Source: Acutalibacteraceae bacterium (GTDB taxonomy: Bacteria; Bacillota; Clostridia; Oscillospirales; Acutalibacteraceae). From it: a DNA stretch of 11,748 bases. The stretch is from positions 1 to 11,748 of the forward strand of contig JAZSEI010000114.1 of assembly GCA_045531635.1 (NCBI GenBank), given 5' to 3'. Position 1 is the stretch's first letter; each line of letters begins with the position of its first letter. A model generated the notes under the pieces. The model did not search any database and had not been told where the DNA came from. It saw only the letters and a list, made by a program, of their open reading frames with translations. The position numbers were made by a program, and so were the translations under genes. This document shows positions 143-11,729 of this stretch, piece by piece.

Positions 143-212
143 ACACGATTTAAAACTATATTTTAAAATAATTAGTCAAAAATATATTTGTTATCTTAAT
201 GAGGTGAATGCA

Positions 213-1460
213 ATGTCATCATATAGCGAGCTTATAAAAAATTTTGATAAAATACGCAGTTATATGCGTGAATTCTATGTATATGGTTTTAAGAGTCGTG
301 AGGAATATACCAAAAAAAGCGCTCGTTCTTATGATGACGAGCGTAGAAGAATAGAAAGCTGGCTTGGTGATTATATGAGCTTTGTACGCACTCCAGAAGG
401 TAAAAATTTATTTATTTCCATTGATAGCCGTGTTTCACAGCATAACCCATTCTATAAAGCACTAAAGGCCAAAAGCTTTACTGATAAAGATATAACTCTG
501 CACTTTATTTTGTTTGATATACTTCATTCGTCAGAAGTGGTTATGTCATTGGCTGAAATACTAGAGCAAATAGATGAATATTTAGCTGTTTTTGAAGCAC
601 CAATGATGTTTGATGAATCTACTGTAAGAAAAAAGCTAAAAGAATATATATCACACAGTATAATTGAAGTTCAAAAAGTTGGTAGAAAAATGTTGTATCG
701 ACGTTCCGATAAAATTGCTTTGCCAGATATAACTGATGTGCTGAATTTCTATTCAGAGATTGCCCCTTGTGGTGTTATTGGTTCTTTTTTACTTGATAAG
801 CAAGAAAAGCAAAGCGATAGTTTTAGTTTCAAGCACCACTACATAACCTCTGCAATAGATAGTGATGTAACAGCAACACTGTTTAAAGCAATGCACGAAA
901 AAAGTATTATTAGCGTTGATAACCTGAGCCGTCGTGAAGTTGAGCCACAAAAAAACAGAATCATACCTTTGCAGATTTTTATCAGTGTTCAGAATGGAAG
1001 ACAGCACTTACTAGCTTATCAGCCAGATTTTAATGTAATTAAATCATTTAGAATTGATTATCTATCTAATGTGAAAATCGAATCACCAACACCCCGTTTT
1101 GATGAATTAAGAGCAGAGCTTGATAAGATGAAGTCGAAAATGTGGGGTGTTTCAACAAAGAGTCAACACTTTAACGCATTTGAGCATGTTGAGTTTACTG
1201 TTAAGATTGCTGATGACGAAGAGCATATTGTCCAAAGACTTGAACGAGAGAAGCGGGTAGGGCAAATAGAAAAGCTTGATGATAACACATATCGTTTTAT
1301 GGCAGATGTTTATGACATAAGCGAAATGATTCCTTGGATACGAACTTTTATTTGCAGAATAACCGAGCTTACTTTTTCTAATAAAGAACTTGAAAAGAGA
1401 TTTAAAAAGGATATAAAAGATATGTATCGTATTTACGGAATTGAAGAGGTGGTGGTATGA
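213..1460 (+). CDS. WYL-domain transcriptional regulator with four parts: an N-terminal extra domain (~90 aa), a DeoR/HTH_11-like winged HTH (~aa 95-170), a WYL domain and a C-terminal WCX-like extension
   Basis: The ORF track gives a GTG at 204. I prefer the ATG at 213, which follows the RBS GAGGTGA (201-207) by 5 nt. HTH-like segment: LAEILEQIDEYL...FDESTVRKKLKEY...IEVQKVGRKMLYRR. WYL-like segment: RIIPLQIFISVQNGRQHLLAYQPDFNVIKSFRIDYLSNVKI, with HLLAY where WYL normally sits and FRIDYL in place of the usual FRldRI motif. WCX-like tail: MIPWIRTFICRITELTF. The stop overlaps the next start (ATGA at 1457-1460). Confidence 0.7.
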   Translation: MSSYSELIKNFDKIRSYMREFYVYGFKSREEYTKKSARSYDDERRRIESWLGDYMSFVRTPEGKNLFISIDSRVSQHNPFYKALKAKSFTDKDITLHFILFDILHSSEVVMSLAEILEQIDEYLAVFEAPMMFDESTVRKKLKEYISHSIIEVQKVGRKMLYRRSDKIALPDITDVLNFYSEIAPCGVIGSFLLDKQEKQSDSFSFKHHYITSAIDSDVTATLFKAMHEKSIISVDNLSRREVEPQKNRIIPLQIFISVQNGRQHLLAYQPDFNVIKSFRIDYLSNVKIESPTPRFDELRAELDKMKSKMWGVSTKSQHFNAFEHVEFTVKIADDEEHIVQRLEREKRVGQIEKLDDNTYRFMADVYDISEMIPWIRTFICRITELTFSNKELEKRFKKDIKDMYRIYGIEEVVV

Positions 1461-2368
1461 TATTTAACGAAATTTACTCTGCCTACTATAATACAGTAGC
1501 CAAAATCATTACAAGTGTCTTAAACGATAATACTGACGAGAAGACTATAAATAGAATAGTTAGTGAAAATGCTTTTGCCGAAAGTGTGCTAAGTATTTTG
1601 CCTTCGCTCAAAAGTGAAAAATGGCAGCTTTTAAAAGCAGATATGACTACTCCTATTCAACATATACCTACAATGCCGTTAACACTAACTCAAAAACAAT
1701 GGTTAAAGGCAATTTCGTTAGACCCACGAATAAAATTGTTTGATATAGATTTTTCATCTCTTGACGGTATTGAACCACTGTTCACATCAGATGATTATTG
1801 CATCTATGACAGATATAATGATGGAGACCCATACGAGGATGAAGAGTATATCAAAAGATTTCAGATTATTCTGTCAGCTTTAAAGGAGAAACAATCACTT
1901 AAAATACAGATGATTAATCGTAAGGGGCATAGCTCTTCAGTTTTAGTTGTTCCACAAAGACTAGAATATTCAGAAAAGGATGATAAATTTCGCATTATAA
2001 GCACAGGATGTCGTTACGGAGCAACTATAAATCTGGCTCGTATCACATCGTGTGAAAAATGCTGTACTTCTAAAATTGTCACTCATAGTGCTTCTCTATC
2101 CTCAAAAGAAGTGTTAACACTCCGTATATTCGATGAACGTAATACTCTAGAACGATGTTTGTTGCATTTTGCACATTTTGAAAAACAAGTAGAACGAATT
2201 GATGAAAATATGTATCTGGTCTATCTTAAATACAATAAAGCAGATGAAACTGAAATTGTTATTCGTGTTTTGAGCTTTGGACCTATGGTTGAAGTGATAG
2301 AGCCTAATCATTTCAGGAAGTTAATAATAGAGCGTTTAAGAAAACAAAAAAGCTGTGAACTTAATTGA
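1457..2368 (+). CDS. Second WYL-domain protein (WYL plus WCX-like C-terminus). Its N-terminal region has no obvious canonical HTH. It is a paralogous partner of the upstream regulator, in a PafB/PafC-like tandem arrangement
   Basis: Start is coupled to the upstream stop (ATGA), with RBS GAGGTGG just upstream. WYL-like segment: SSVLVVPQRLEYSEKDDKFRIISTGCRYGATINLARITSCE. C-terminus FGPMVEVIEPNHFRKLIIERLRKQ matches the familiar fG..veVleP..lr tail of WYL/WCX proteins. Confidence 0.7.
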   Translation: MIFNEIYSAYYNTVAKIITSVLNDNTDEKTINRIVSENAFAESVLSILPSLKSEKWQLLKADMTTPIQHIPTMPLTLTQKQWLKAISLDPRIKLFDIDFSSLDGIEPLFTSDDYCIYDRYNDGDPYEDEEYIKRFQIILSALKEKQSLKIQMINRKGHSSSVLVVPQRLEYSEKDDKFRIISTGCRYGATINLARITSCEKCCTSKIVTHSASLSSKEVLTLRIFDERNTLERCLLHFAHFEKQVERIDENMYLVYLKYNKADETEIVIRVLSFGPMVEVIEPNHFRKLIIERLRKQKSCELN

Positions 2369-2384
2369 GTTCGCAGCTTTTTTT
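2346..2384 (+). terminator. Rho-independent terminator ending the WYL gene pair
   Basis: AGCTGTGAAC (2351-2360) pairs with GTTCGCAGCT (2369-2378): a 10-bp stem with one G-U, an 8-nt loop that contains the TGA stop, an A-run before and a T6 run after (2379-2384). Confidence 0.6.
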
Positions 2385-2396
2385 CCGTGTTATATA
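2369..2396 (+). promoter_or_regulatory. Candidate extended -10 promoter (TGtTATATA, 2388-2396) with a weak -35 (TTCGCA, 2369-2374) for the leader/SPFH/rtcB transcript
   Basis: The TGn-TATATA motif lies immediately after the upstream terminator. The -35 is poor, so confidence is low. Confidence 0.25.
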
Positions 2397-2399
2397 AGG

Positions 2400-2840
2400 A
2401 ATATATTGGTAAAATATCCTTGCAAGGTTACTTCAAGCGTGTGTATAAAATTAACCTACACTGCGGTGCACAAGGCTATGCCAAAGTGTATGCCAGAAGA
2501 ATCACTTGCTCCCTGGCAATAGGATATATGCCAGTTATGTTTTTTGATATCTAACGAGGCTCAAAATCTCAAAAGAAATGTGGGTTAGAAAACCACAACC
2601 ATTGTAATGTGCAAAAGCACACCAAACACTATCACAAAAAAGCAATTACTCTGCTGATGAATAGAAATTACTTTTCGTTAGCAATGTGCGAGTTGCCTTG
2701 CTTGAGAATGGATACCGTGTTTCAAACATATAAGCCAAAAGCTTTCTTTCCGCTTATATGTGCGATCACTTAAATTTTCAACCGTAATTGGTGCATGAGT
2801 AATTGCTGATGCAATTTAACCTTTAGGAGGATTATATATT
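2400..2840 (+). other. Long (~440 nt) non-coding leader or candidate structured RNA upstream of the SPFH-rtcB genes. It contains the palindrome CCTTGCAAGG and several direct-repeat motifs
   Basis: No ORF with an RBS is present. GC content is visibly higher than in the other intergenic regions of the window. Palindrome at 2418-2427. TATGCCA occurs three times (2477, 2488, 2527). ATGTGCGA occurs twice (2684, 2758), with AATGTGCAA at 2605. Confidence 0.3.
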
Positions 2841-3944
2841 ATGAAGAAAATTATTATTAACGAAAAACAAAGAGGACTACTATTTAAAAACGGAAAATAC
2901 ATAAAAATGCTTACTGCTGGCAAATACTATGCTTGTGGTGGAAAAGAAATAGAGGTATTAGATATGACTGAATTTCCAGTTACATCTGGTAACTGCGAAT
3001 TAGAAACTCTTCTAAAAGACAAAGCTGTTGCAGATTCTGTAGTTGTAGCTGACGTAGGTGACCAGGAAATAGCACTTCATTTTATTAATGGCAAATTTAA
3101 AGATGTTTTGCTTCATGGTAAATATGCTTTTTGGTCAATTATTGATAAGCACGAATTTAAGATTGTTGATAAATCTCAGACAGAGGTATCAGATGACGTG
3201 CCAGAATATATTTTTTCAAGAATGGCACCTCTTTACTATACTAAGATTGAGGTTTTAGAGTATCAGAAGGTACTGCTATATTTCAATCAGAAGTTTGTAA
3301 AGATTCTTGATGCAGGTACATATTATTTTTGGAGAAACGGTGTTAAGATTGATACAAGATGTGTTGATACCCGACTAACACAGATGAATATTACTGGACA
3401 GGAGATATTAACTCAGGATAAGGTTTCTTTACGCATTAATTTTGTATGCAATTACCGTGTAACAGATTATGTGAAGATACATACCGAGATTGATAACTTC
3501 ACCGAGCAAATGCATGTGGCTGCACAGCTTGCTTTGCGTGAGTATGTAGGAAAATATAAGCTTGACGAGATTTTGGAAAACAAAGTAGAAATGTCTGAGT
3601 TTGTATTTGCTAAGTTAAAAGCGAAAGAAAAGGAGCTTTTTATTGAGATTACAGACGCTGGTGTAAAGGACATTATTTTACCAGGAGAAATTCGTGAAAT
3701 AATGAACACTGTACTGGTTGCAGAAAAACGTGCACAGGCAAATGTAATTACTCGTCGAGAAGAGGTTGCCTCTACCAGATCATTGCTGAATACAGCAAAG
3801 CTGATGGACGAGAACAAAACACTCTACAAGCTCAAGGAGCTTGAGTATATTGAGCGTATCTGTGAGAATGTTGGTAATATCAACCTTAACGGGAATACAG
3901 ATGTACTAACACAGCTTACAGGTATACTCAAGGGTAACACATAA
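2841..3944 (+). CDS. SPFH/band-7 (stomatin/prohibitin/flotillin/HflKC) domain protein, 367 aa. It has no N-terminal TM helix. About 190 aa of N-terminal sequence is made of three tandem ~60-aa repeats that resemble the first beta-hairpin segment of the SPFH fold
   Basis: Strong RBS AGGAGG 8-10 nt upstream of the ATG at 2841. SPFH core: QEILTQDKVSLRINFVCNYRVTDYVK...DAGVKDIILPGEIREIMNTVLVAEKRAQANVITRREEVAS. The three repeats are RGLLFKNGKYIKMLTAGKYYA, IALHFINGKFKDVLLHGKYAFW and VLLYFNQKFVKILDAGTYYFW. Confidence 0.8.
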   Translation: MKKIIINEKQRGLLFKNGKYIKMLTAGKYYACGGKEIEVLDMTEFPVTSGNCELETLLKDKAVADSVVVADVGDQEIALHFINGKFKDVLLHGKYAFWSIIDKHEFKIVDKSQTEVSDDVPEYIFSRMAPLYYTKIEVLEYQKVLLYFNQKFVKILDAGTYYFWRNGVKIDTRCVDTRLTQMNITGQEILTQDKVSLRINFVCNYRVTDYVKIHTEIDNFTEQMHVAAQLALREYVGKYKLDEILENKVEMSEFVFAKLKAKEKELFIEITDAGVKDIILPGEIREIMNTVLVAEKRAQANVITRREEVASTRSLLNTAKLMDENKTLYKLKELEYIERICENVGNINLNGNTDVLTQLTGILKGNT

Positions 3945-4012
3945 ACAATGTCATCACCATTTGATAACTGTTAAAGATTTAAACGGTGTTGTTACAAAGA
4001 AAGGAAATTTTT

Positions 4013-5221
4013 ATGATAGAGATAAAAGGTAAGTTTAATACTGCTTTATGCTATACAAACGAACTTGAGCCTACTGCTTATGCTCAAATTGAAGCAGTGT
4101 GCAACGAAAAGGCTTTCGAAAATTCTAAAATCCGTATAATGCCTGATGTTCACGCTGGTAAGGGCTGTACAATTGGTACCACAATGACTATTGTTGATAA
4201 GGTTGTACCCAATATGGTTGGTGTTGATATTGGTTGTGGAATGTATACTGTAAGCTTAGGTAAGATTGATATTGACCTTGCAAAGTTTGATGAGGTTGCA
4301 CATTCTATTCCTTGTGGCAGAAATGTTTGGGAGGGCAGACAAGAACGCTTTGATTTAACACAGCTTCGTTGTTATAGAAATCTTAAGGATACTAGAAGAC
4401 TAGAGAGAAGCCTTGGCACCTTAGGAGGAGGTAACCACTTTATCGAAATTGATACTGATGAAAATGGAAATAAGTATTTAATAATCCACTCTGGCAGTCG
4501 TAATCTTGGTACACAGGTTGCTGAGTTTTATCAAACCATTGCAGTTGATTTGGATCTAGGCAAAGAGGAGTATTTTAAAAAGCGTGACGAAATCATTAGC
4601 ACATATAAGCAACAGGGTAGAAGAAGTGAAATTCAATCCACCTTAAAGCAACTAGCGAAGGAATGGGAAGAGAAGTCCCCGACAATGCCTAAAGAGCTTT
4701 GTTATCTTTTCGGTTCATTTATGGACGACTATCTACACGATATAAATATCTGTCAGCAATTTGCAAAGCGTAACCGTGAGAAAATGGCTGAGATTTTGCT
4801 ACTAAAGACAGGTATTACAGGTTTTGAAGCATTTCAGACTATCCACAATTATATTGATGTAGATGAAATGATTCTGCGTAAGGGCTCTGTTTCTGCTAAG
4901 AAAGGAGAAAAGCTGTTAATTCCGATTAATATGCGTGATGGTAGTCTTATCTGTATTGGTAAGGGTAATTCAGAGTGGAACTACTCTGCACCTCACGGAG
5001 CAGGTCGCTTAATGTCTCGTTCCGTTGCATTTGAAAAGCTTACTATGGAAGAGTACCAAAAGCAAATGGCAGGTATTTATACTACTTGTGTAAATACTTC
5101 TACTCTAGATGAGTCACCTATGGCATATAAAAATATGGATGATATTATAGCAAATATTGAACCTACTGCCGAAATTATTGCACATATCAAGCCAATTTAT
5201 AATTTTAAGGCTGCAGAATAG
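4013..5221 (+). CDS. rtcB: RtcB-family RNA 3'-phosphate/2',3'-cyclic-phosphate ligase (402 aa)
   Basis: Diagnostic RtcB motifs are present: MPDVHAGKG, GVDIGCGMY (Asp/Cys metal ligands), GGGNHFIEID, HSGSRNLG and APHGAGR (the His that is guanylylated). I prefer the ATG at 4013, with RBS AAAGGAAA 7 nt upstream, over the GTG at 3986 in the ORF track. There is no terminator between the SPFH gene and rtcB, so they are probably co-transcribed. Confidence 0.9.
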   Translation: MIEIKGKFNTALCYTNELEPTAYAQIEAVCNEKAFENSKIRIMPDVHAGKGCTIGTTMTIVDKVVPNMVGVDIGCGMYTVSLGKIDIDLAKFDEVAHSIPCGRNVWEGRQERFDLTQLRCYRNLKDTRRLERSLGTLGGGNHFIEIDTDENGNKYLIIHSGSRNLGTQVAEFYQTIAVDLDLGKEEYFKKRDEIISTYKQQGRRSEIQSTLKQLAKEWEEKSPTMPKELCYLFGSFMDDYLHDINICQQFAKRNREKMAEILLLKTGITGFEAFQTIHNYIDVDEMILRKGSVSAKKGEKLLIPINMRDGSLICIGKGNSEWNYSAPHGAGRLMSRSVAFEKLTMEEYQKQMAGIYTTCVNTSTLDESPMAYKNMDDIIANIEPTAEIIAHIKPIYNFKAAE

Positions 5222-5886: not shown

Positions 5887-5959
5887 AAAACTTAATTTCT
5901 AAGAAACTAAAACTTTGAGTATATAGACAGTTATTAAGTTAAAATAGAATAAGCAAGCC

Positions 5960-6004
5960 AATAGACACTTATCAGTTAGAAGATTGATAAGTGTCTATTT
6001 TTTT
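5960..6004 (+). terminator. Rho-independent terminator after the nitroreductase gene
   Basis: ATAGACACTTATCA (5961-5974) and TGATAAGTGTCTAT (5985-5998) form a perfect 14-bp stem with a 10-nt loop, followed by T6 (5999-6004). Confidence 0.75.
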
Positions 6005-6152
6005 GCTTGTTTTAATTTAGGGATCAATCTATAATATATTTATATATAAATGGCTAAAATTACCAAGTATGTTGCAAAAACAACCGACTATCTAAAATCA
6101 GTGGTATATTTTTTTAGATCTGATATACTTTAGTTCGAAAGGGGGAAATGTA

Positions 6153-6593
6153 ATGCAAATAGAAATCAGCATTGACGCAAAATATAAGATTCCCAAAATC
6201 ATAATAAAAACAGACAGAATAACAGATGAGGTCAATGAGGTTATGAAAAAGCTTTCAGACGACTCACCAAAGGTTATTACTGGATTTAAGGATGATTGCG
6301 TAGAGGTTCTTGAGCCTGAGCGAATTTACCGTTTTTATTCAAGCCAAGGCAAGGTTTTTGCTGTGACAGATAATGGGGAGTATACAGTAAGAACTCGACT
6401 TTACGAGATTGAGGAGCAGATGTGCTTACCAAAATTTGTAAGAGTGTCAAATTCAGAAATAATTAATCTGAAAAAGGTCAAAAATTTTGACCTGAGCTTA
6501 GCAGGCACAATCTGTGTGCAGTTTTCTGACGGCTCTGACACTTATGTGTCAAGAAGATATGTATCAAAAATCAAAAAAATATTAGGTATATGA
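6153..6593 (+). CDS. Stand-alone LytTR-family DNA-binding regulator (146 aa, no receiver domain)
   Basis: LytTR-like pattern: IIIKTDRITDEVNEVMKKL...IYRFYSSQGKVFAVTDNGEYTVRTRLYEIEEQM..FVRVSNSEIINLKKVKNFD..VQFSDGSDTYVSRRY. RBS AAGGGGGA 7-8 nt upstream. Confidence 0.75.
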   Translation: MQIEISIDAKYKIPKIIIKTDRITDEVNEVMKKLSDDSPKVITGFKDDCVEVLEPERIYRFYSSQGKVFAVTDNGEYTVRTRLYEIEEQMCLPKFVRVSNSEIINLKKVKNFDLSLAGTICVQFSDGSDTYVSRRYVSKIKKILGI

Positions 6594-6602
6594 GGTGTTT
6601 TT

Positions 6603-7058
6603 ATGTTTAAAGAAATTTTAAAAAGAAGTGTATTAAGTGCGTTAGGTGGTTTGTTTATTACTCAGCTTGTAGGTGTTATTGTTTCACTATGTATAGCAGA
6701 TGGCAATTATTATCCTGTTGTGCCTTCACTTACAGAGAGTATAGGTAGCGAAATCGGTGCAGTTATATTCCAGACAGTTTGCTCATTGTTGTATGGTGCT
6801 GTATTTGGTGGTATGTCAATAATATGGGAGCTGGATAATTGGAGTATTTTAAAACAAACAGTAGTTCACTTTTTAGTGGTTTCTTTTGTAAGCTTTCCTA
6901 TTGCATATGTTACCGAGTGGATGGAGCATTCTATAGTTGGAGGAATTACTTACTTTGCTGTATTTGCAGTAATTTACGCATTCATATGGTTTAGTCAATA
7001 CATAAGTGTAAGAAAGCGTATAAATGAAGTAAATAAAAAGCTTAACCAAACAGCTTGA
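6603..7058 (+). CDS. Small 4-TM membrane protein (151 aa), DUF3021-like. Probably the membrane inhibitor partner of the LytTR regulator, analogous to HdrM/BrsM
   Basis: Four hydrophobic helices are visible. RBS GAGGTG overlaps the upstream stop, indicating translational coupling. A LytTR gene followed by a small polytopic membrane protein is the recurrent streptococcal LRS architecture. Confidence 0.6.
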   Translation: MFKEILKRSVLSALGGLFITQLVGVIVSLCIADGNYYPVVPSLTESIGSEIGAVIFQTVCSLLYGAVFGGMSIIWELDNWSILKQTVVHFLVVSFVSFPIAYVTEWMEHSIVGGITYFAVFAVIYAFIWFSQYISVRKRINEVNKKLNQTA

Positions 7059-7092: not shown

Positions 7093-7256
7093 TTTATACT
7101 AAACTCTATTAAAAAGTAGACTTCTTTACGGCGTATTTTGCACCAAACTTCATACCGCGTCCTCGGAAGGCGACAGCCTTCCTGTGGGTCAGTATTCGTT
7201 TGGCACAAAATCTGCTCGCAAATCCTTGTCCACTTTTTATCAGAGTTTAGTATTAT
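7093..7256. repeat. Copy A of a ~140-160 nt extragenic element bounded by inverted repeats, with an internal GGAAGG/CCTTCC hairpin
   Basis: ATACTAAACTCT (7096-7107) is the inverse of AGAGTTTAGTAT (7242-7253). The core from 7116 is about 79% identical over 39 nt and 67% over another 39 nt to 9906-10000. Copy A carries an extra 20-nt GC-rich hairpin (7165-7182). Confidence 0.5.
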
Positions 7257-7427
7257 AGGTTTTACAAAGCTTAATTTTATGTTTCATAAAGTAATTCAAA
7301 ATCTCAAATTTATGTGAAAGATGATAATTTTTATTAATCAGTTTACTGAAATACTTTTTATAAGGCAATTAACTTCAACAGCAATAATAAATAATTTTAA
7401 AATGACGACAAAATATACAATTATCTA

Positions 7428-7456
7428 TTGACCAACCACGATATTTTTATTACAAT
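7428..7456 (+). promoter_or_regulatory. Candidate sigma-A promoter: TTGACC (7428-7433), 17-nt spacer, TACAAT (7451-7456), for the beta-CASP RNase/LOG operon
   Basis: Near-consensus hexamers with ideal spacing. It would give a ~140-nt 5' UTR that contains a small GGTG...CACC hairpin. Confidence 0.4.
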
Positions 7457-7603
7457 TTAAGAAAAGGTGTAAAATTCACCATGTATTTTTTGCTGTATCA
7501 TAATAAATAAAAAAGATTGCCCTTAAAGATTATCGTTCGATTTGAGAAGCAACTTATAAAATAAAGATTTGTATAAATACTAAAAAACAGAGAGGTGTAT
7601 CAA

Positions 7604-9211
7604 ATGAAAATTCAATTTATAGGAGCAGTTCACGAGGTAACAGGAAGCTGTACTTTGCTCGAAGTAAATGAGAAAATTTATTTAGTAGATTGTGGTATGG
7701 AACAAGGAATAGATGTTTTTCAGAATATTGCTTTACCTGTTCCAGCAAATTCTATTGAAGCTGTGTTTTTAACTCATGCACATATCGACCATTCAGGAAT
7801 GTTACCAAAGCTGTATAAGGATGGATTTAAAGGCTCGATATATGCTACAGATGTAACTTGTGATTTGTGCAATATTATGCTGAGAGATTCTGCTTATATT
7901 CAAGAATCAGAGGCAAAATGGCAATCCAAGAAAGAACAGCGAGCAGGTAGAGAGTCTGTGGAGCCAACATATAATATGCAAGACGCAATCGGAGCTATCT
8001 CGTGTTTTCGTAGATGTAATTACGGTGAATTGGTTTCTGCAGGTGAAGGTGTAGAAATCAGGTTTACAGATGTTGGACATCTTTTAGGCTCTGCCTGTAT
8101 TGAAATTTGGCTTTCAGAGGGTGAAATAGAGAAGAAGATCGTATTTAGTGGAGATGTAGGAAACATAAATCAGCCTATTATTCGTGACCCACAGTTTGTT
8201 GAAGAAACTGATTATCTTGTTATTGAGTCCACATACGGAAATCGTCTGCATAATGAGAATAAAAGTAATGTAGTAAACGAGCTAGCAGAATATATTCAAC
8301 AGGCATTAGATAGAGGAGGTAATGTGATAATCCCTTCATTTGCAGTGGGTAGAACTCAAGAGCTGTTGTATACTATCCGTGAAATAAAGCAAAAAGGATT
8401 AGTAACAGGGCACGAACATTTTCCTGTATATGTAGACAGTCCTCTTGCAGCAGAATCAACAGCTATATTTATGCAGTGTAATCCAATTTGCTTTGATGAA
8501 GAAACTATTGCGTTAATAAAGGAAGGGATAAATCCAATTTGGTTTGATGATATATATATGACAGTTACCTCTGAGGAATCTAAACAGATTAATTTGGATA
8601 AAAAAGCTAAGGTTATTATTTCTGCAAGTGGAATGTGTGAGGCAGGAAGAATTCGCCATCATCTAAAGCATAATCTTTGGCAGGAAAATAATATTATTCT
8701 TTTTGTAGGTTATCAAGCAGAAGGCTCATTAGGCAGAAAACTGATAGAGGGAGCAAAAACAGTAAAGCTTTTTGGAGAAGAAATTGCTGTAAATGCACAA
8801 ATTTGCACACTACACGGTTCTAGTGGTCATGCAGACTGTGATGGACTTATTAACTGGGTTTTAGCATTTAAAGAAAAGCCAGAATTGATATTTGTAAATC
8901 ACGGAGATGATAGTGCCTGTGAAGACTTCAAAAAATTATTGATTGAAAAAGGTTATATGGCAGATGCTCCATATAGTGGTACAGAGTATGACCTTGCTAC
9001 AGGAAAAATGACAGTTTATACAGAAGGCAAATTAATTGACCGAGTACAGCTGTTTAAGGGTAATAAACGTGCTAATATGCTTTATAATGATCTTGTATCA
9101 GAAGCAGAAAGACTACTTGCATTAGCTAAAGAACGTAAGGGTAGAGCTAATAAAGATAATGCTAAGCTCACTTCTCAAATTCGAGAGCTAATTGAAAAAT
9201 GGAAAGATTAA
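7604..9211 (+). CDS. Beta-CASP family MBL-fold ribonuclease (RNase J/CPSF73-like RNA-metabolising metallo-beta-lactamase) with a ~100-aa basic/coiled C-terminal tail
   Basis: MBL motifs: LVDCGM, HAHIDHSG, VGHLLGSA, FSGDVG. Beta-CASP motifs: ESTYG...and GSSGHAD. I prefer the ATG at 7604, with RBS AGAGAGGTG 6 nt upstream, over the GTG at 7595. Confidence 0.8.
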   Translation: MKIQFIGAVHEVTGSCTLLEVNEKIYLVDCGMEQGIDVFQNIALPVPANSIEAVFLTHAHIDHSGMLPKLYKDGFKGSIYATDVTCDLCNIMLRDSAYIQESEAKWQSKKEQRAGRESVEPTYNMQDAIGAISCFRRCNYGELVSAGEGVEIRFTDVGHLLGSACIEIWLSEGEIEKKIVFSGDVGNINQPIIRDPQFVEETDYLVIESTYGNRLHNENKSNVVNELAEYIQQALDRGGNVIIPSFAVGRTQELLYTIREIKQKGLVTGHEHFPVYVDSPLAAESTAIFMQCNPICFDEETIALIKEGINPIWFDDIYMTVTSEESKQINLDKKAKVIISASGMCEAGRIRHHLKHNLWQENNIILFVGYQAEGSLGRKLIEGAKTVKLFGEEIAVNAQICTLHGSSGHADCDGLINWVLAFKEKPELIFVNHGDDSACEDFKKLLIEKGYMADAPYSGTEYDLATGKMTVYTEGKLIDRVQLFKGNKRANMLYNDLVSEAERLLALAKERKGRANKDNAKLTSQIRELIEKWKD

Positions 9212-9236
9212 ATTGAAAATTCAGGAGAATGAAAGT

Positions 9237-9818
9237 ATGAGAATATGTGTATATGGTGCAGCGTCGCCAACTATTGACGATATCTACAAAGAAAAGGTAG
9301 AACATTTGGGTAAAGTAATGGTACAGCGTGGTCATTCACTTGTATTTGGTGGTGGCGGCAAAGGCTTGATGGGAGCCGTTGCGAATGGTGTTCATTCGGC
9401 TAAAGGTCATATTATTGGCGTAATACCACAATTTTTCTTAGATGAAAAAATAGAAGCAGTATGTGAGTTTTGCGATGAAATGATACTTACCGAAACAATG
9501 CGTGAACGAAAACAAATTATGGAGGATAATGCAGACGCTTTTATTATAGTACCAGGTGGTATTGGAACATACGAAGAGTTTTTTGAAATACTAACATTAA
9601 AGCAACTGTGTCGTCATAATAAACCAATTGTTATTTATAATATCGAAGGATATTATAATGAAATTGAAACAGCAATGAATGAAGCAATAAGAAAGAATTT
9701 TATAAAAGATAGTTGCGTAGAACTGTATGAAGTTACTGATGAGCTGGACAAATTATTTGAATGTGTTGAAAATACTCAGCAAAAAATAAGAACAGTAAAA
9801 GAGCTTAAAGATGGCTGA
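9237..9818 (+). CDS. LOG-family (TIGR00730-type Rossmann fold) nucleotide 5'-monophosphate nucleosidase / cytokinin-riboside phosphoribohydrolase-like protein (193 aa)
   Basis: GGGGKGLMGAVANG and VPGGIGTYEEFFE are the LOG signatures (the PGGxGTxxE motif). I prefer the ATG at 9237, with RBS AGGAGA 8 nt upstream, over the ORF-track start at 9192. It lies 25 bp after the RNase stop and is probably co-transcribed. Confidence 0.8.
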   Translation: MRICVYGAASPTIDDIYKEKVEHLGKVMVQRGHSLVFGGGGKGLMGAVANGVHSAKGHIIGVIPQFFLDEKIEAVCEFCDEMILTETMRERKQIMEDNADAFIIVPGGIGTYEEFFEILTLKQLCRHNKPIVIYNIEGYYNEIETAMNEAIRKNFIKDSCVELYEVTDELDKLFECVENTQQKIRTVKELKDG

Positions 9819-9883
9819 TAAATAAGCTAGAGATGAAATTAAGTTTAATGTATTTTATATAGAGATTGAAATGTTCTAAATCT

Positions 9884-10025
9884 TAATACTATTTAATTTC
9901 AAACAAGTAGATATCTTTTCGGCATATTTTTCATCTGACTTCATAGCCTTGCTGTGGTATGCTATTCGTCAGATAAAAAATTTGATCCAAAATTTTATCC
10001 ATTGTTAAGAACTGAAATAGTATAA
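9884..10025. repeat. Copy B of the inverted-repeat-bounded extragenic element
   Basis: ATACTATTT (9887-9895) is the inverse of AAATAGTAT (10015-10023). The core beginning AAGTAGATATCTTTTCGGCATATTTTTCATCTGACTTCATA aligns to copy A. Confidence 0.5.
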
Positions 10026-10073
10026 AATATTAAAGATTTAGAGGTGTTACGGAATAACCAATACTTATAAAAT

Positions 10074-10112
10074 AAAGTGTGTGAGTTATAAAAATAGCTT
10101 GCACACTTTTTT
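10074..10112 (+). terminator. Rho-independent terminator downstream of element B
   Basis: GTGTGTGAGTT (10077-10087) pairs with AGCTTGCACAC (10096-10106), including 3 G-U pairs, with an 8-nt loop. It is flanked by an A-run and followed by T6 (10107-10112). Confidence 0.5.
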
Positions 10113-10138
10113 GCATTTGTTTATAAGCGTGCTACAAT
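10111..10138 (+). promoter_or_regulatory. Candidate orphan sigma-A promoter: TTGCAT (10111-10116), 16-nt spacer, TACAAT (10133-10138)
   Basis: Good hexamers. No ORF with an RBS follows for about 440 nt. The degenerate element copy C lies within the putative transcript. Confidence 0.35.
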
Positions 10139-10439
10139 AAAAGAAAGGACAAAAAAGGAATAATCACAAAAGTGCATTATACACTTTTCTTCACAAACCC
10201 TAAATCTTTATCCATAATATTTCTGAAAATGCAACAACCTAAAAGTTAGTATTCTTTTCTGACTTTTGGGGTCAACTTTCTTTACGGTTATTGCATCTAC
10301 TGCTTAAGATTGACTATAAAGGCTGTAGTGTTAAAAATATAGAGTTAAATATAAATTCGTTTTGTAAGTAAAGATATGCCTGTGTTATAAAAAATCCGTT
10401 TGCATAAAAATTAATAACTGCTTATTGAGTTGAAATGCA

Positions 10440-10583: not shown

Positions 10584-11729
10584 ATGAGTAAAAAAACAAA
10601 AAAGAAAAAAATGGTATGGCAACAGTACATAGGTATGGCTTTTATGATATTGATTGGAGGAGCATGTGGTTTTATTATGACTATGTGTACTGATAAGATT
10701 GACGAAAATGCACCATTGTACCAAGAAATTCTATCATTTATCGGTGTTTTTATCGGAATATACGTTGCGTACTTTTTACATGTGATTATCCACGAGGCAG
10801 GTCACCTTATATTCGGCTTGCTAACAGGGTATAAATTCAGTTCTTTCCGTATCTTCTCCTTTATGTGGCTAAAGGAAAATGGAAAACTTAAATTAAAACG
10901 ATTAAGCATTGCAGGCACTGGTGGTCAATGTCTTATGGCTCCACCGGATATGAAGAACGATAAATTTCCAATAGTTTTATATAATCTTGGTGGTTCCTTT
11001 ATCAATGTTATTGTAGGTGCTCTGTTTCTGGTTGGATATTCACTTTGCTCTGATACTGCGTTTTTATCTGCACTTCTTATGATTTTTGCAGTTGTAGGCT
11101 TTATGACTGCTATGATGAATGGTATACCAATGCGTATGGGATTACTTGATAACGATGGTTACAATGCTTTTACTTTATCAAAAAATGCAGAAGCAATGCA
11201 GGCATTCTGGCTTCAGTTAAAGCTTGCCGAACAGCTTTCAAAGGGTGTTCGGCTTAAGGATATGCCATCAGAATGGTTTACTCTGCCGTCTGATGAAGCC
11301 ATGAAAAACAGTATGGTGGCAACTAAGGGTGTATTTATTTGTAACAGATTGATGGACGAAGAGAGCTTTGAAGAAGCTGACACTCTTATGAAGCACATTC
11401 TTTCAATTGATAGTGGAATACTTGGTCTTCACCATGACCTACTTGTCTGTGATAGAATATTTGTAGAACTAATTAGTGAAAATCGCCCTGAAGTTATCGA
11501 AAATATGCTTACTAAAGAAATAAAGAAGCTTATGAAAGCAATGAAACGTTATCCATCTGTGCTTCGTACTGAATATGCACTTGCTTTACTTTTCGAGAAA
11601 AACAGTACAAAGGCTGAAGCGATACTGAATGATTTTGAAAAAGTTGCAAAGTCCTATCCGTATCCTCAAGAGGTGGAGTCTGAAAGAGCTTTAATTAAGA
11701 TTGCACATAGCAAACTAATTACAAAGTAA
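10584..11729 (+). CDS. Polytopic membrane HExxH zinc metallopeptidase (M50/site-2-protease-like, 4 predicted TM helices) with a ~190-aa C-terminal soluble helical domain
   Basis: HEAGH lies inside TM2. A second motif, NGIPMRMGLLDNDG, resembles the M50 NxxPxxxLDG motif. The lysine-rich N-terminus MSKKTKKKK is followed by a TM helix. RBS AAGAAGG lies upstream. Confidence 0.7.
   Translation: MSKKTKKKKMVWQQYIGMAFMILIGGACGFIMTMCTDKIDENAPLYQEILSFIGVFIGIYVAYFLHVIIHEAGHLIFGLLTGYKFSSFRIFSFMWLKENGKLKLKRLSIAGTGGQCLMAPPDMKNDKFPIVLYNLGGSFINVIVGALFLVGYSLCSDTAFLSALLMIFAVVGFMTAMMNGIPMRMGLLDNDGYNAFTLSKNAEAMQAFWLQLKLAEQLSKGVRLKDMPSEWFTLPSDEAMKNSMVATKGVFICNRLMDEESFEEADTLMKHILSIDSGILGLHHDLLVCDRIFVELISENRPEVIENMLTKEIKKLMKAMKRYPSVLRTEYALALLFEKNSTKAEAILNDFEKVAKSYPYPQEVESERALIKIAHSKLITK

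What the first reader, a model, noticed from the sequence alone, without database searches (positions are those of the whole stretch)
7093..10330. Repeated IR-bounded ~140-160-nt extragenic element (copies at 7093-7256 and 9884-10025, with a degenerate third copy near 10240-10330)
Two non-coding segments, each 35-65 bp downstream of a gene's stop codon, share a core of ~70-75% identity beginning AAGTAGA(N2)TCTTT(A/T)CGGC(G/A)TATTTT. Each is bracketed by its own short inverted repeat starting ATACTA (A: ATACTAAACTCT/AGAGTTTAGTAT; B: ATACTATTT/AAATAGTAT). Copy A carries an extra 20-nt GGAAGG/CCTTCC hairpin. A third, more degenerate stretch (TTCTTTACGGTTATTGCATCTACTGC...CTGTAGTG, ~10275-10330) lies between an orphan promoter and the next gene.

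The structure fits a small non-autonomous mobile element (MITE-like), a conserved 3'-UTR/terminator-associated RNA structure, or a family of small RNAs. Nothing in the protein-coding annotation explains it.
Basis: seen in the sequence. Interest (0 to 1): 0.6.

Follow-up and report, generated by a model that had tools for sequence, protein, structure and literature searches.

The report
Two copies of a small jumping-DNA hairpin
The two similar non-coding segments are copies of a ~156-bp hairpin-shaped, non-coding mobile DNA element (a MITE) that has spread through the genomes of a group of uncultured Acutalibacteraceae bacteria; this is an ordinary kind of genomic parasite, though this family seems undescribed.

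Summary
Copies A and B are real and related. Their local alignment has z = 12, and 0 of 1000 dinucleotide shuffles score as high. The proposed third copy at 10240-10330 is not distinguishable from chance.

A and B belong to a dispersed family. I found 15 intact copies and several decayed ones, all in Acutalibacteraceae contigs. Each copy is one long imperfect palindrome with ends 5'-TACT...AGTA-3', flanked by a 3-bp direct repeat TWA in 12 of 15 copies. Around A the repeat is TTA/TTA; around B it is TAA/TAA.

An orthologous filled/empty site shows insertion directly. The gltX-glnS spacer carries the element between two TAA triplets in one MAG. Relatives with 91-93% identical GltX have a single TAA and no element.

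Refined coordinates are A = 7097-7252 and B = 9887-10022.

The elements have no Rfam match, no conserved ORF, no promoter or terminator of their own, and no U-tract. They decay at orthologous sites.

Verdict: a new family of a known kind, a palindromic MITE whose TWA duplication suggests a partner from the IS5/PIF-Harbinger transposase superfamily. No transposase partner was found.

One oddity remains. The hairpin pairs consistently better on the strand antisense to the flanking genes.

The parts
7097..7252 (.). MITE copy A, 156 bp, full length, ends TACTAAACTCT...AGAGTTTAGTA. The 'plus-like' strand lies on the window + strand.
   Evidence: Family HMM E = 1.5e-44. Ends and palindrome. 95% identical to a paralogous copy in another MAG (L005). 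Hairpin -76.4 kcal/mol on the minus strand and -58.1 on the plus strand.
7094..7096 (.). Left target-site duplication of copy A (TTA)
   Evidence: TTA on both sides of A. TWA direct repeats flank 12 of 15 copies.
7253..7255 (.). Right target-site duplication of copy A (TTA)
7165..7182 (.). Apical hairpin of copy A (GGAAGG-CGACAG-CCTTCC). It is ancestral to the family, not an insertion.
   Evidence: Present in 12 of 14 aligned copies; helix 5.
9887..10022 (.). MITE copy B, 136 bp, same orientation as A. It is an internal-deletion derivative lacking the 21-nt apical hairpin (deletion at about 9945/9946).
   Evidence: Family HMM E = 5.7e-34; alignments; ends.
9884..9886 (.). Left target-site duplication of copy B (TAA)
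10023..10025 (.). Right target-site duplication of copy B (TAA)
10074..10109 (+). Intrinsic terminator-like hairpin with T-run downstream of copy B. It is the likely terminator of the beta-CASP/LOG operon, so B lies inside the 3'UTR. This is context, not part of the element.
7428..7456 (+). Sigma-70-like promoter of the beta-CASP gene (TTGACC-17-TACAAT), about 175 bp downstream of copy A and conserved in relatives. This is context, not part of the element.
   Evidence: conservation seen in L013, L016, L023 and L024.

Best explanation
A (7097-7252) and B (9887-10022) are two insertions of a non-autonomous DNA transposon: a palindromic MITE of about 156 bp found in a clade of uncultured Acutalibacteraceae (Clostridia).

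Shown. The element has terminal inverted repeats beginning TACT, and the pairing extends along almost its whole length. It has no conserved ORF. It occurs as dispersed copies in both orientations, sometimes two or three in one spacer, and it is flanked by a 3-bp duplication of a TWA (TAA/TTA) target. It is present or absent at an otherwise orthologous site.

Inferred. A transposase encoded elsewhere binds the TACT... ends, makes a 3-bp staggered cut at TWA in AT-rich spacers, and inserts the element. Stop codons and their surroundings offer such targets. The TWA 3-bp duplication is the signature of the PIF/Harbinger transposons, whose transposase resembles that of bacterial IS5, so a partner of that superfamily is the best guess, but none was found.

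Local consequences, also inferred. B places a ~136-nt hairpin in the LOG 3'UTR ahead of the real terminator. A lies between the DUF3021 stop and the beta-CASP promoter. Both copies sit at the edges of the only block that stays syntenic among relatives (beta-CASP + LOG).
For: (1) The family exists. A genome-collection scan with a 19-base pattern gave 8 true hits, all in Acutalibacteraceae MAGs. An HMM found further diverged copies in the same spacers in both orientations, and one more came from a metagenome.

(2) TSD. With ends defined as TACT...AGTA, 12 of 15 copies have identical 3-bp flanks. These are TAA/TAA in 10 copies and TTA/TTA in 2, read with every copy in the same element orientation. 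The flanks are direct repeats, not inverted ones.

(3) Filled versus empty site. L007 reads GGAGTA-TAA-[157 bp]-TAA-ATTATTAAG between gltX and glnS. L026 and L027 (GltX 93% identical) read GGAGTA-TAA-TTATTAAG. L028 and L029 (91%) also carry a single TAA. The target TAA is the gltX stop codon.

(4) The window copy did not descend vertically at its site. Window A is 95% identical to L005, a different locus in MAG_1329, but only about 75% identical to its positional counterpart in that same MAG (L024). That counterpart has lost its terminal repeats, and similar decayed remnants sit upstream of beta-CASP in L013, L014 and L023.

(5) No coding or RNA-gene features. There is no Rfam match at gathering thresholds and only noise at E<=10. 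The candidate 14-aa ORF is broken in L003, L006 and L011. No U-tract follows the hairpin.

(6) The 3-bp TTA/TAA duplication is characteristic of PIF/Harbinger elements, whose transposase resembles bacterial IS5 (PMC2213677). The defining MITE features of TIRs, direct repeats, small size and no ORF are described in PMC3184786 and PMC10969869.
Against: No autonomous element with matching ends was found in the 277 kb fetched, nor in the plasmid or phage collections.

Only one clean empty site was obtained, and it is not for the window's own copies. The flanks of A and B differ in every relative examined.

The filled and empty sequences differ by one extra A next to the second TAA.

The TTA/TAA co-variation rests on few TTA cases (by-hand Fisher p about 0.04).

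Compensatory changes run along the whole hairpin, with 15 pairs changed on both sides and 0/500 shuffles reaching that. The G-U asymmetry is strand-specific, 62 cells against 10. Transposase binding to the ends alone explains neither.
Confidence: 0.88

Rival explanations
1. A multi-copy structured small-RNA gene family, transcribed from the strand antisense to the flanking genes, whose copies spread by duplication rather than by transposition.
For: The hairpin is strongly supported: 94% of cells are paired, 15 pairs changed on both sides, and 0/500 shuffles reach that. 13 of 15 copies fold 2-22 kcal/mol better on the 'minus-like' strand (12 of them by 5.6 kcal/mol or more). G-U pairs on that strand outnumber those on the other by 62 to 10 cells, with conserved wobbles at four positions across subfamilies.
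Against: The flanks differ at every site, so a promoter and terminator would have to be internal, yet the paired ends reach the very tips. No U-tract follows the hairpin on either strand. There is no Rfam match. The 3-bp direct repeats and the exact filled/empty site are not produced by gene duplication. Orthologous copies decay. Copies occur in both orientations relative to neighbouring genes, 10 to 4.
Confidence: 0.05
2. A cis-acting 3'-UTR element, acting as a transcription terminator or mRNA-stabilising hairpin selected at gene ends. On this reading mobility is irrelevant.
For: A and B, and 10 of 14 independent copies, lie downstream of a co-oriented gene. B lies between the LOG stop codon and its terminator, so it is almost certainly transcribed as part of that mRNA.
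Against: There is no T-run after the hairpin. A separate canonical terminator follows B. The strand that would appear in the mRNA is the one that folds worse. The orientation bias of 10:4 is not significant. Relatives carry the same genes without the element (L012, L013, L016, L023-L025).
Confidence: 0.04
3. A REP/REPIN-type element mobilised by a RAYT (IS200/IS605-like) transposase, or integron attC recombination sites.
For: The elements are long hairpins downstream of genes. The arm contains a conserved GTAG (AAGTAGAC). The strand-specific folding is reminiscent of elements processed as single strands.
Against: REP units are 20-40 bp, are GC-rich, and insert without target duplication (PMC3733652, PMC3184786). 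Here there is a 3-bp TSD. The attC R''/R' cores (RYYYAAC/GTTRRRY, from my own knowledge) are not at the ends. The neighbours are housekeeping genes (purD, parB/serS, gltX/glnS, gpmI) rather than cassettes. No integrase or RAYT gene is seen in any locus.
Confidence: 0.02

Closest known systems
Bacterial palindromic MITEs: Correia/NEMIS (Neisseria), ERIC (Enterobacteriaceae), RUP (Streptococcus pneumoniae)
   Same: They are 100-160 bp and non-coding, and fold as a hairpin of their two inverted arms. They are dispersed in intergenic spacers and flanked by short AT-rich direct repeats (PMC3184786).
   Different: ERIC-type sequences are flanked by a TA motif (PMC3184786), and from memory Correia and RUP also duplicate TA. 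Here the duplication is 3 bp, TWA. There is no sequence similarity (no Rfam, plasmid or phage hits), and the host clade is different (Acutalibacteraceae).
bcr1 of the Bacillus cereus group
   Same: It is a Firmicute element of about 155 bp, non-coding and variable in position between strains. It is flanked by short direct repeats, shows compensatory changes that preserve structure, and some copies lose stability (PMC3184786).
   Different: [quoted passage not shown]
Tourist-like MITEs / PIF-Harbinger superfamily, whose transposase resembles bacterial IS5
   Same: The 3-bp TTA/TAA target-site duplication is the hallmark of this group (PMC2213677).
   Different: Tourist and PIF elements are eukaryotic, and their TIRs carry a G(N)5GTT motif. 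Here the ends are TACTA... From memory, bacterial IS5-family ends usually start GA/GG. No transposase partner was identified.

Membership tests
Prokaryotic MITE | Small size (about 100-400 bp) and no coding capacity | tested here: met
   Copies are 136-158 bp. The only candidate ORF (14 aa) is disrupted in L003, L006 and L011.
Prokaryotic MITE | Terminal inverted repeats | tested here: met
   The ends are TACT...AGTA. 8-12 of the terminal 12 nt are complementary (9 or more in 14 of the 15 copies), and 14-18 of the terminal 20.
Prokaryotic MITE | Target-site duplication (short direct repeats flanking each copy) | tested here: met
   A 3-bp TWA is identical on both sides in 12 of 15 copies. The empty site holds one TAA and the filled site two.
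Prokaryotic MITE | Multiple dispersed copies per genome, in unrelated contexts and both orientations | tested here: met
   There are at least 5 intact copies plus one decayed remnant in MAG_1329 (L005, L009, three in L011; remnant in L024). There are at least 3 in MAG_498 (L003, two in L008) and 2 in the window.
Prokaryotic MITE | Presence/absence polymorphism at orthologous sites | tested here: met
   The gltX-glnS spacer is filled in L007 (and in L017 on the gltX side). It is empty in L026-L029.
Prokaryotic MITE | A related autonomous IS with the same ends, encoding the transposase | tested here: inconclusive
   None was found in the 277 kb fetched or in the plasmid and phage collections. 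Whole host genomes could not be searched.
IS5 / PIF-Harbinger-mobilised (Tourist-like) MITE | 3-bp TSD of TTA/TAA | tested here: met
   feature definition from PMC2213677.
IS5 / PIF-Harbinger-mobilised (Tourist-like) MITE | TIR similarity to, and co-occurrence with, an IS5/Harbinger-type DDE transposase element | not testable with these tools
   No partner was located. The plant G(N)5GTT TIR motif is absent from the TACTA... ends.
REP / REPIN (RAYT-mobilised) | 20-40-bp GC-rich palindromic unit with a GTAG/CGTC head and no target duplication | tested here: not met
   The element is a 156-bp AT-rich hairpin with a 3-bp TSD; feature definition from PMC3733652.
Integron attC site | R''/R' core sites (RYYYAAC...GTTRRRY) at the ends, cassette arrays, nearby integrase | tested here: not met
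   The ends are TACT/AGTA and the neighbours are housekeeping genes. The feature definition is from my own knowledge.
Curated structured RNA family (Rfam 15) | Covariance-model match at the gathering score | tested here: not met
   There were 0 matches in the window and only noise at E<=10.
Intrinsic terminator | GC-rich stem followed by a U-tract | tested here: not met
   No terminator-like site overlaps A or B. The only one found is at 10074-10109, after B.

The most novel reading that the evidence does not exclude
The hairpin is selected on one specific strand, the one antisense to most neighbouring genes. That strand shows conserved G-U wobbles at four positions across subfamilies that are only 65-70% identical, together with compensatory changes along the whole stem. 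This could mean that the element's spread or persistence depends on a single-stranded form, either an RNA or a single-stranded DNA snap-back intermediate. Examples would be an antisense or processed RNA that regulates its transposase or its neighbours, or an RNase III substrate. In that case it would not be a plain double-stranded cut-and-paste MITE.
Probability: 0.18. Interest if true: 0.5.

Novelty: new member of a known kind. Interest (0 to 1): 0.25.

Why it matters
The practical value is modest. The result explains two unannotated, highly structured spacers without invoking a new RNA gene. It gives exact element boundaries and a 3-bp TWA target rule that annotators could use to mask this repeat in Acutalibacteraceae MAGs, where it probably breaks assemblies and marks rearrangement points. 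It also adds a Clostridia example of a bacterial MITE with a Harbinger/IS5-type duplication. The strand-biased hairpin conservation is the only feature that could lead further.

Tried and rejected
Rfam at gathering thresholds and at E<=10 gave nothing meaningful.

A small peptide on the minus strand (MKFGAKYAVKKSTF / MKSDEKYAEK...) was rejected. Its start codon is lost in L011 and a stop follows two codons in L003 and L006.

The third copy at 10240-10330 was rejected by shuffle tests and by the HMM.

An integron attC or REPIN reading was rejected on ends, context and the TSD.

A 2-bp TA duplication (IS630/Tc1-like) was rejected because it does not fit both the TAA- and TTA-flanked copies with a single pair of element ends.

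Several searches found little or nothing:
- The viral contig scan gave 0 hits.
- The metagenome scan gave one true hit.
- BLAST against plasmids and phages found nothing.
- A search for long elements with the same ends in all fetched loci found none.

I tried to find an empty site for the window's own copies through orthologues of beta-CASP and of the M50-like protein. This failed because the flanking genes differ in every relative.

The exact-protein look-up of the window's beta-CASP returned nothing, although the homology search lists an identical protein from an 11,748-base NCBI contig.
Full report
**Observation**

The window is AT-rich, and all its sizeable genes lie on the + strand. By Pfam they are, in order:
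- two WYL/WCX-domain proteins
- an SPFH/Band-7 protein
- RtcB
- a nitroreductase
- a LytTR protein (6153-6593)
- DUF3021 (6603-7058)
- a beta-CASP metallo-beta-lactamase-fold RNase-like protein (7604-9211)
- a LOG-family protein (9237-9818)
- an M50-like peptidase (10584-11729)

A 44-nt core is 80% identical (D2), and they align along their length. A local alignment of the refined elements scores 43 against 16.1 +/- 2.2 for 1000 dinucleotide-preserving shuffles (z = 12, 0/1000).

The proposed third copy fails the same test. Its z-scores are 0.8-1.6 on the + strand and 0.0-0.5 as reverse complement, with 83-533 of 1000 shuffles at least as good. A family HMM run without filters at E<=10 does not detect it either.

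**Anatomy**

Each copy folds as one long imperfect hairpin, not just a pair of short terminal repeats. The A region (7093-7256) folds at -59.7 kcal/mol on the + strand (z = -8.4) and -78.5 on the - strand (z = -13.9). The B region folds at -33.7 and -43.2.

The inner stems of A and B differ by compensatory changes: TTTTGCACCAAAC/GTTTGGCACAAAA against TTTTTCATCTGAC/GTCAGATAAAAAA.

Rfam 15 has no match at gathering thresholds and only noise at E<=10.

**The family**

I scanned one genome per species of the prokaryotic collection with GTAGANNTCTTTNCGGCNTATTT. This gave 11 hits. Eight are full-length relatives, and all eight come from Acutalibacteraceae MAGs. The other three are chance matches inside coding sequence.

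An HMM built from ten copies found further, more diverged copies in the same spacers:
- three in one spacer of L011
- two in one spacer of L008, in both orientations
- one in L013
- one in a metagenome contig, L017

Viral contigs, plasmids and phages gave nothing.

The window itself is an NCBI contig from this family of bacteria. Its beta-CASP protein is on record from an 11,748-base contig, and the closest named relatives are Acutalibacteraceae.

Copies sit between unrelated housekeeping genes, such as after purD, between parB and serS, between gltX and glnS, and after gpmI.

Copies fall into subfamilies. One is A-like (winA, L005, L011b, L011c) and one is B-like (most others). L008b and L011a are only 59-71% identical to every other copy.

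B lacks it because of a 21-nt deletion, and L013 lacks it through a different deletion.

**Evidence for transposition**

When the ends are set at 5'-TACT...AGTA-3', 12 of 15 copies are flanked by an identical 3-bp direct repeat. With every copy read in the same element orientation, this is TAA/TAA in ten and TTA/TTA in two (winA and L001). The exceptions are L006 (TAA/CAA), L009 (CAG/TTA) and L011a (TTA/TAA). A palindromic extension of the element would predict TTA on one side and TAA on the other. That is seen only once.

The decisive case is the gltX-glnS spacer:
- L007 reads GGAGTA-TAA-[157-bp element]-TAA-ATTATTAAGTAAGG.
- L026 and L027, whose GltX is 93% identical, read GGAGTA-TAA-TTATTAAGTAAGG with an intergenic distance of only 26 nt.
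- L028 and L029 (91% identical) also have a single TAA and an 18-nt spacer.

The insertion therefore duplicated TAA, which here is the gltX stop codon. One extra A separates the filled sequence from a perfect match to the empty one, which is unsurprising at this divergence.

On this basis, A is 7097-7252 with TTA at 7094-7096 and 7253-7255. B is 9887-10022 with TAA at 9884-9886 and 10023-10025.

**Behaviour at the window's own loci**

Only the beta-CASP + LOG pair is syntenic among relatives. The genes on either side differ in every lineage examined (L012, L013-15, L016, L023/24, L025). A and B therefore sit at the two edges of the conserved block.

No relative has a copy downstream of LOG.

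Upstream of the conserved beta-CASP promoter (TTGACC-17-TACAAT, 7428-7456) several relatives carry decayed A-like remnants in the same orientation. A sequence resembling part of the element in the opposite orientation sits there in L016, judged by eye only.

Window A is 95% identical to L005, a copy at an unrelated locus of MAG_1329. It is only about 75% identical to the remnant occupying the corresponding position in that same MAG (L024), and 53% to the remnant in L013. So the intact copy in the window is not simply a vertically inherited orthologue. Either a fresh copy landed in or replaced an old one, or the copy was homogenised by conversion. In either case, individual copies are not held intact by selection.

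**What it is not**

- The flanks differ at every site, so an independent RNA gene would need an internal promoter and terminator. Yet the pairing reaches the tips of the element, and no U-tract follows it on either strand.
- The only terminator-like site is a separate one at 10074-10109, downstream of B. B is therefore probably transcribed within the LOG 3'UTR.
- A short ORF on the minus strand is not conserved.
- Orientation relative to the upstream gene is 10 to 4, which is not significant.
- REP/REPIN and attC readings fail on size, end motifs, context and the presence of a duplication.

**Mechanism**

Shown: terminal inverted repeats, a 3-bp TWA duplication, dispersed copies in both orientations, nesting in the same spacers, a filled/empty site, and decay.

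Inferred: mobilisation in trans by a DDE transposase that makes 3-bp staggered cuts at TWA. A 3-bp TTA/TAA duplication is the hallmark of PIF/Harbinger elements and their Tourist-like MITEs, whose transposase resembles bacterial IS5 (PMC2213677). A partner of that superfamily is therefore the best guess. I could not find one, and from memory the TACT ends do not resemble typical IS5-family ends.

General MITE criteria and the comparison with Correia, ERIC, RUP and bcr1 are taken from PMC3184786 and PMC10969869.

**An unexplained feature**

The hairpin is better conserved than transposase binding at the ends would require. In a 14-copy alignment 94% of cells are paired, and 15 of 42 pairs show changes on both sides. 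All five measures exceed every one of 500 column shuffles and all slid controls.

The conservation is also strand-specific:
- G-U pairs on the 'minus-like' strand occupy 62 cells against 10 on the other strand.
- Among pair positions shared by two or more copies the count is 11 against 2. Among singletons it is 8 against 6.
- 13 of 15 copies fold 2-22 kcal/mol better on that strand, 12 of them by 5.6 kcal/mol or more.

Part of this is inheritance from master copies, and the structure was derived on that strand. The contrast between old shared differences and recent singletons still suggests that lineages which kept spreading retained a good hairpin on one strand. Intramolecular repair in a snap-back form, or an RNA or single-stranded DNA role, could explain it. 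I cannot distinguish these.

**Verdict**

This is a real repeat correctly flagged as possibly MITE-like. It is a new, apparently undescribed family of an ordinary kind of element. Two copies, not three, lie in the window.

Noticed in passing
window 204-5221: Two adjacent WYL/WCX-domain proteins, an SPFH/Band-7 protein and RtcB form a co-directional block. In relative L012 the Band7-RtcB pair is followed by a KAP-family NTPase. This looks like an RNA-repair or stress (possibly defence-linked) module under WYL-type regulators.
   Followed up: no
window 7418-7460, and L013 ~9850-9895, L016 ~8440-8485, L023/L024: A sequence of about 45 nt, ACAATTATCTATTGACC-N17-TATTACAATTTAA, is almost identical upstream of the beta-CASP gene in lineages whose surrounding spacer is otherwise unalignable. 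It is a strongly conserved promoter, followed by a ~150-nt leader that is not conserved.
   Followed up: partly
window 5940-6019: This is the longest inverted repeat in the window (35-nt arms, 83% complementary, 10-nt loop). It lies just after the nitroreductase gene and is unrelated to the MITE. It may be a terminator or another palindromic element.
   Followed up: no
L017 872-1040 versus L007 and L006: The L017 copy shares its left junction (gltX end) with L007, but its right end (CAGAAATATTA) resembles the L006 type and the downstream sequence is not glnS. This could be recombination between copies or a chimeric low-coverage assembly (coverage 1.03).
   Followed up: partly
L013 870-900 and L008 4505-4520: The element tip is duplicated in tandem next to a copy: TTAATACT-TAATACT at the left of L013, and TAGTAT-TAGTAT at one end of L008b. 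This may reflect insertion next to a remnant of an earlier copy, or a preference for sites resembling its own end.
   Followed up: no
L016 10930-11040: Downstream of LOG in this relative lies a different hairpin, AAGGCATATTTTGAAATGCTCCTG...CAGGAGGTCAGAATATGCCTT. Its arm resembles the CGGCATATTTT motif of the MITE. It may be a distant relative of the family or a coincidence.
   Followed up: no
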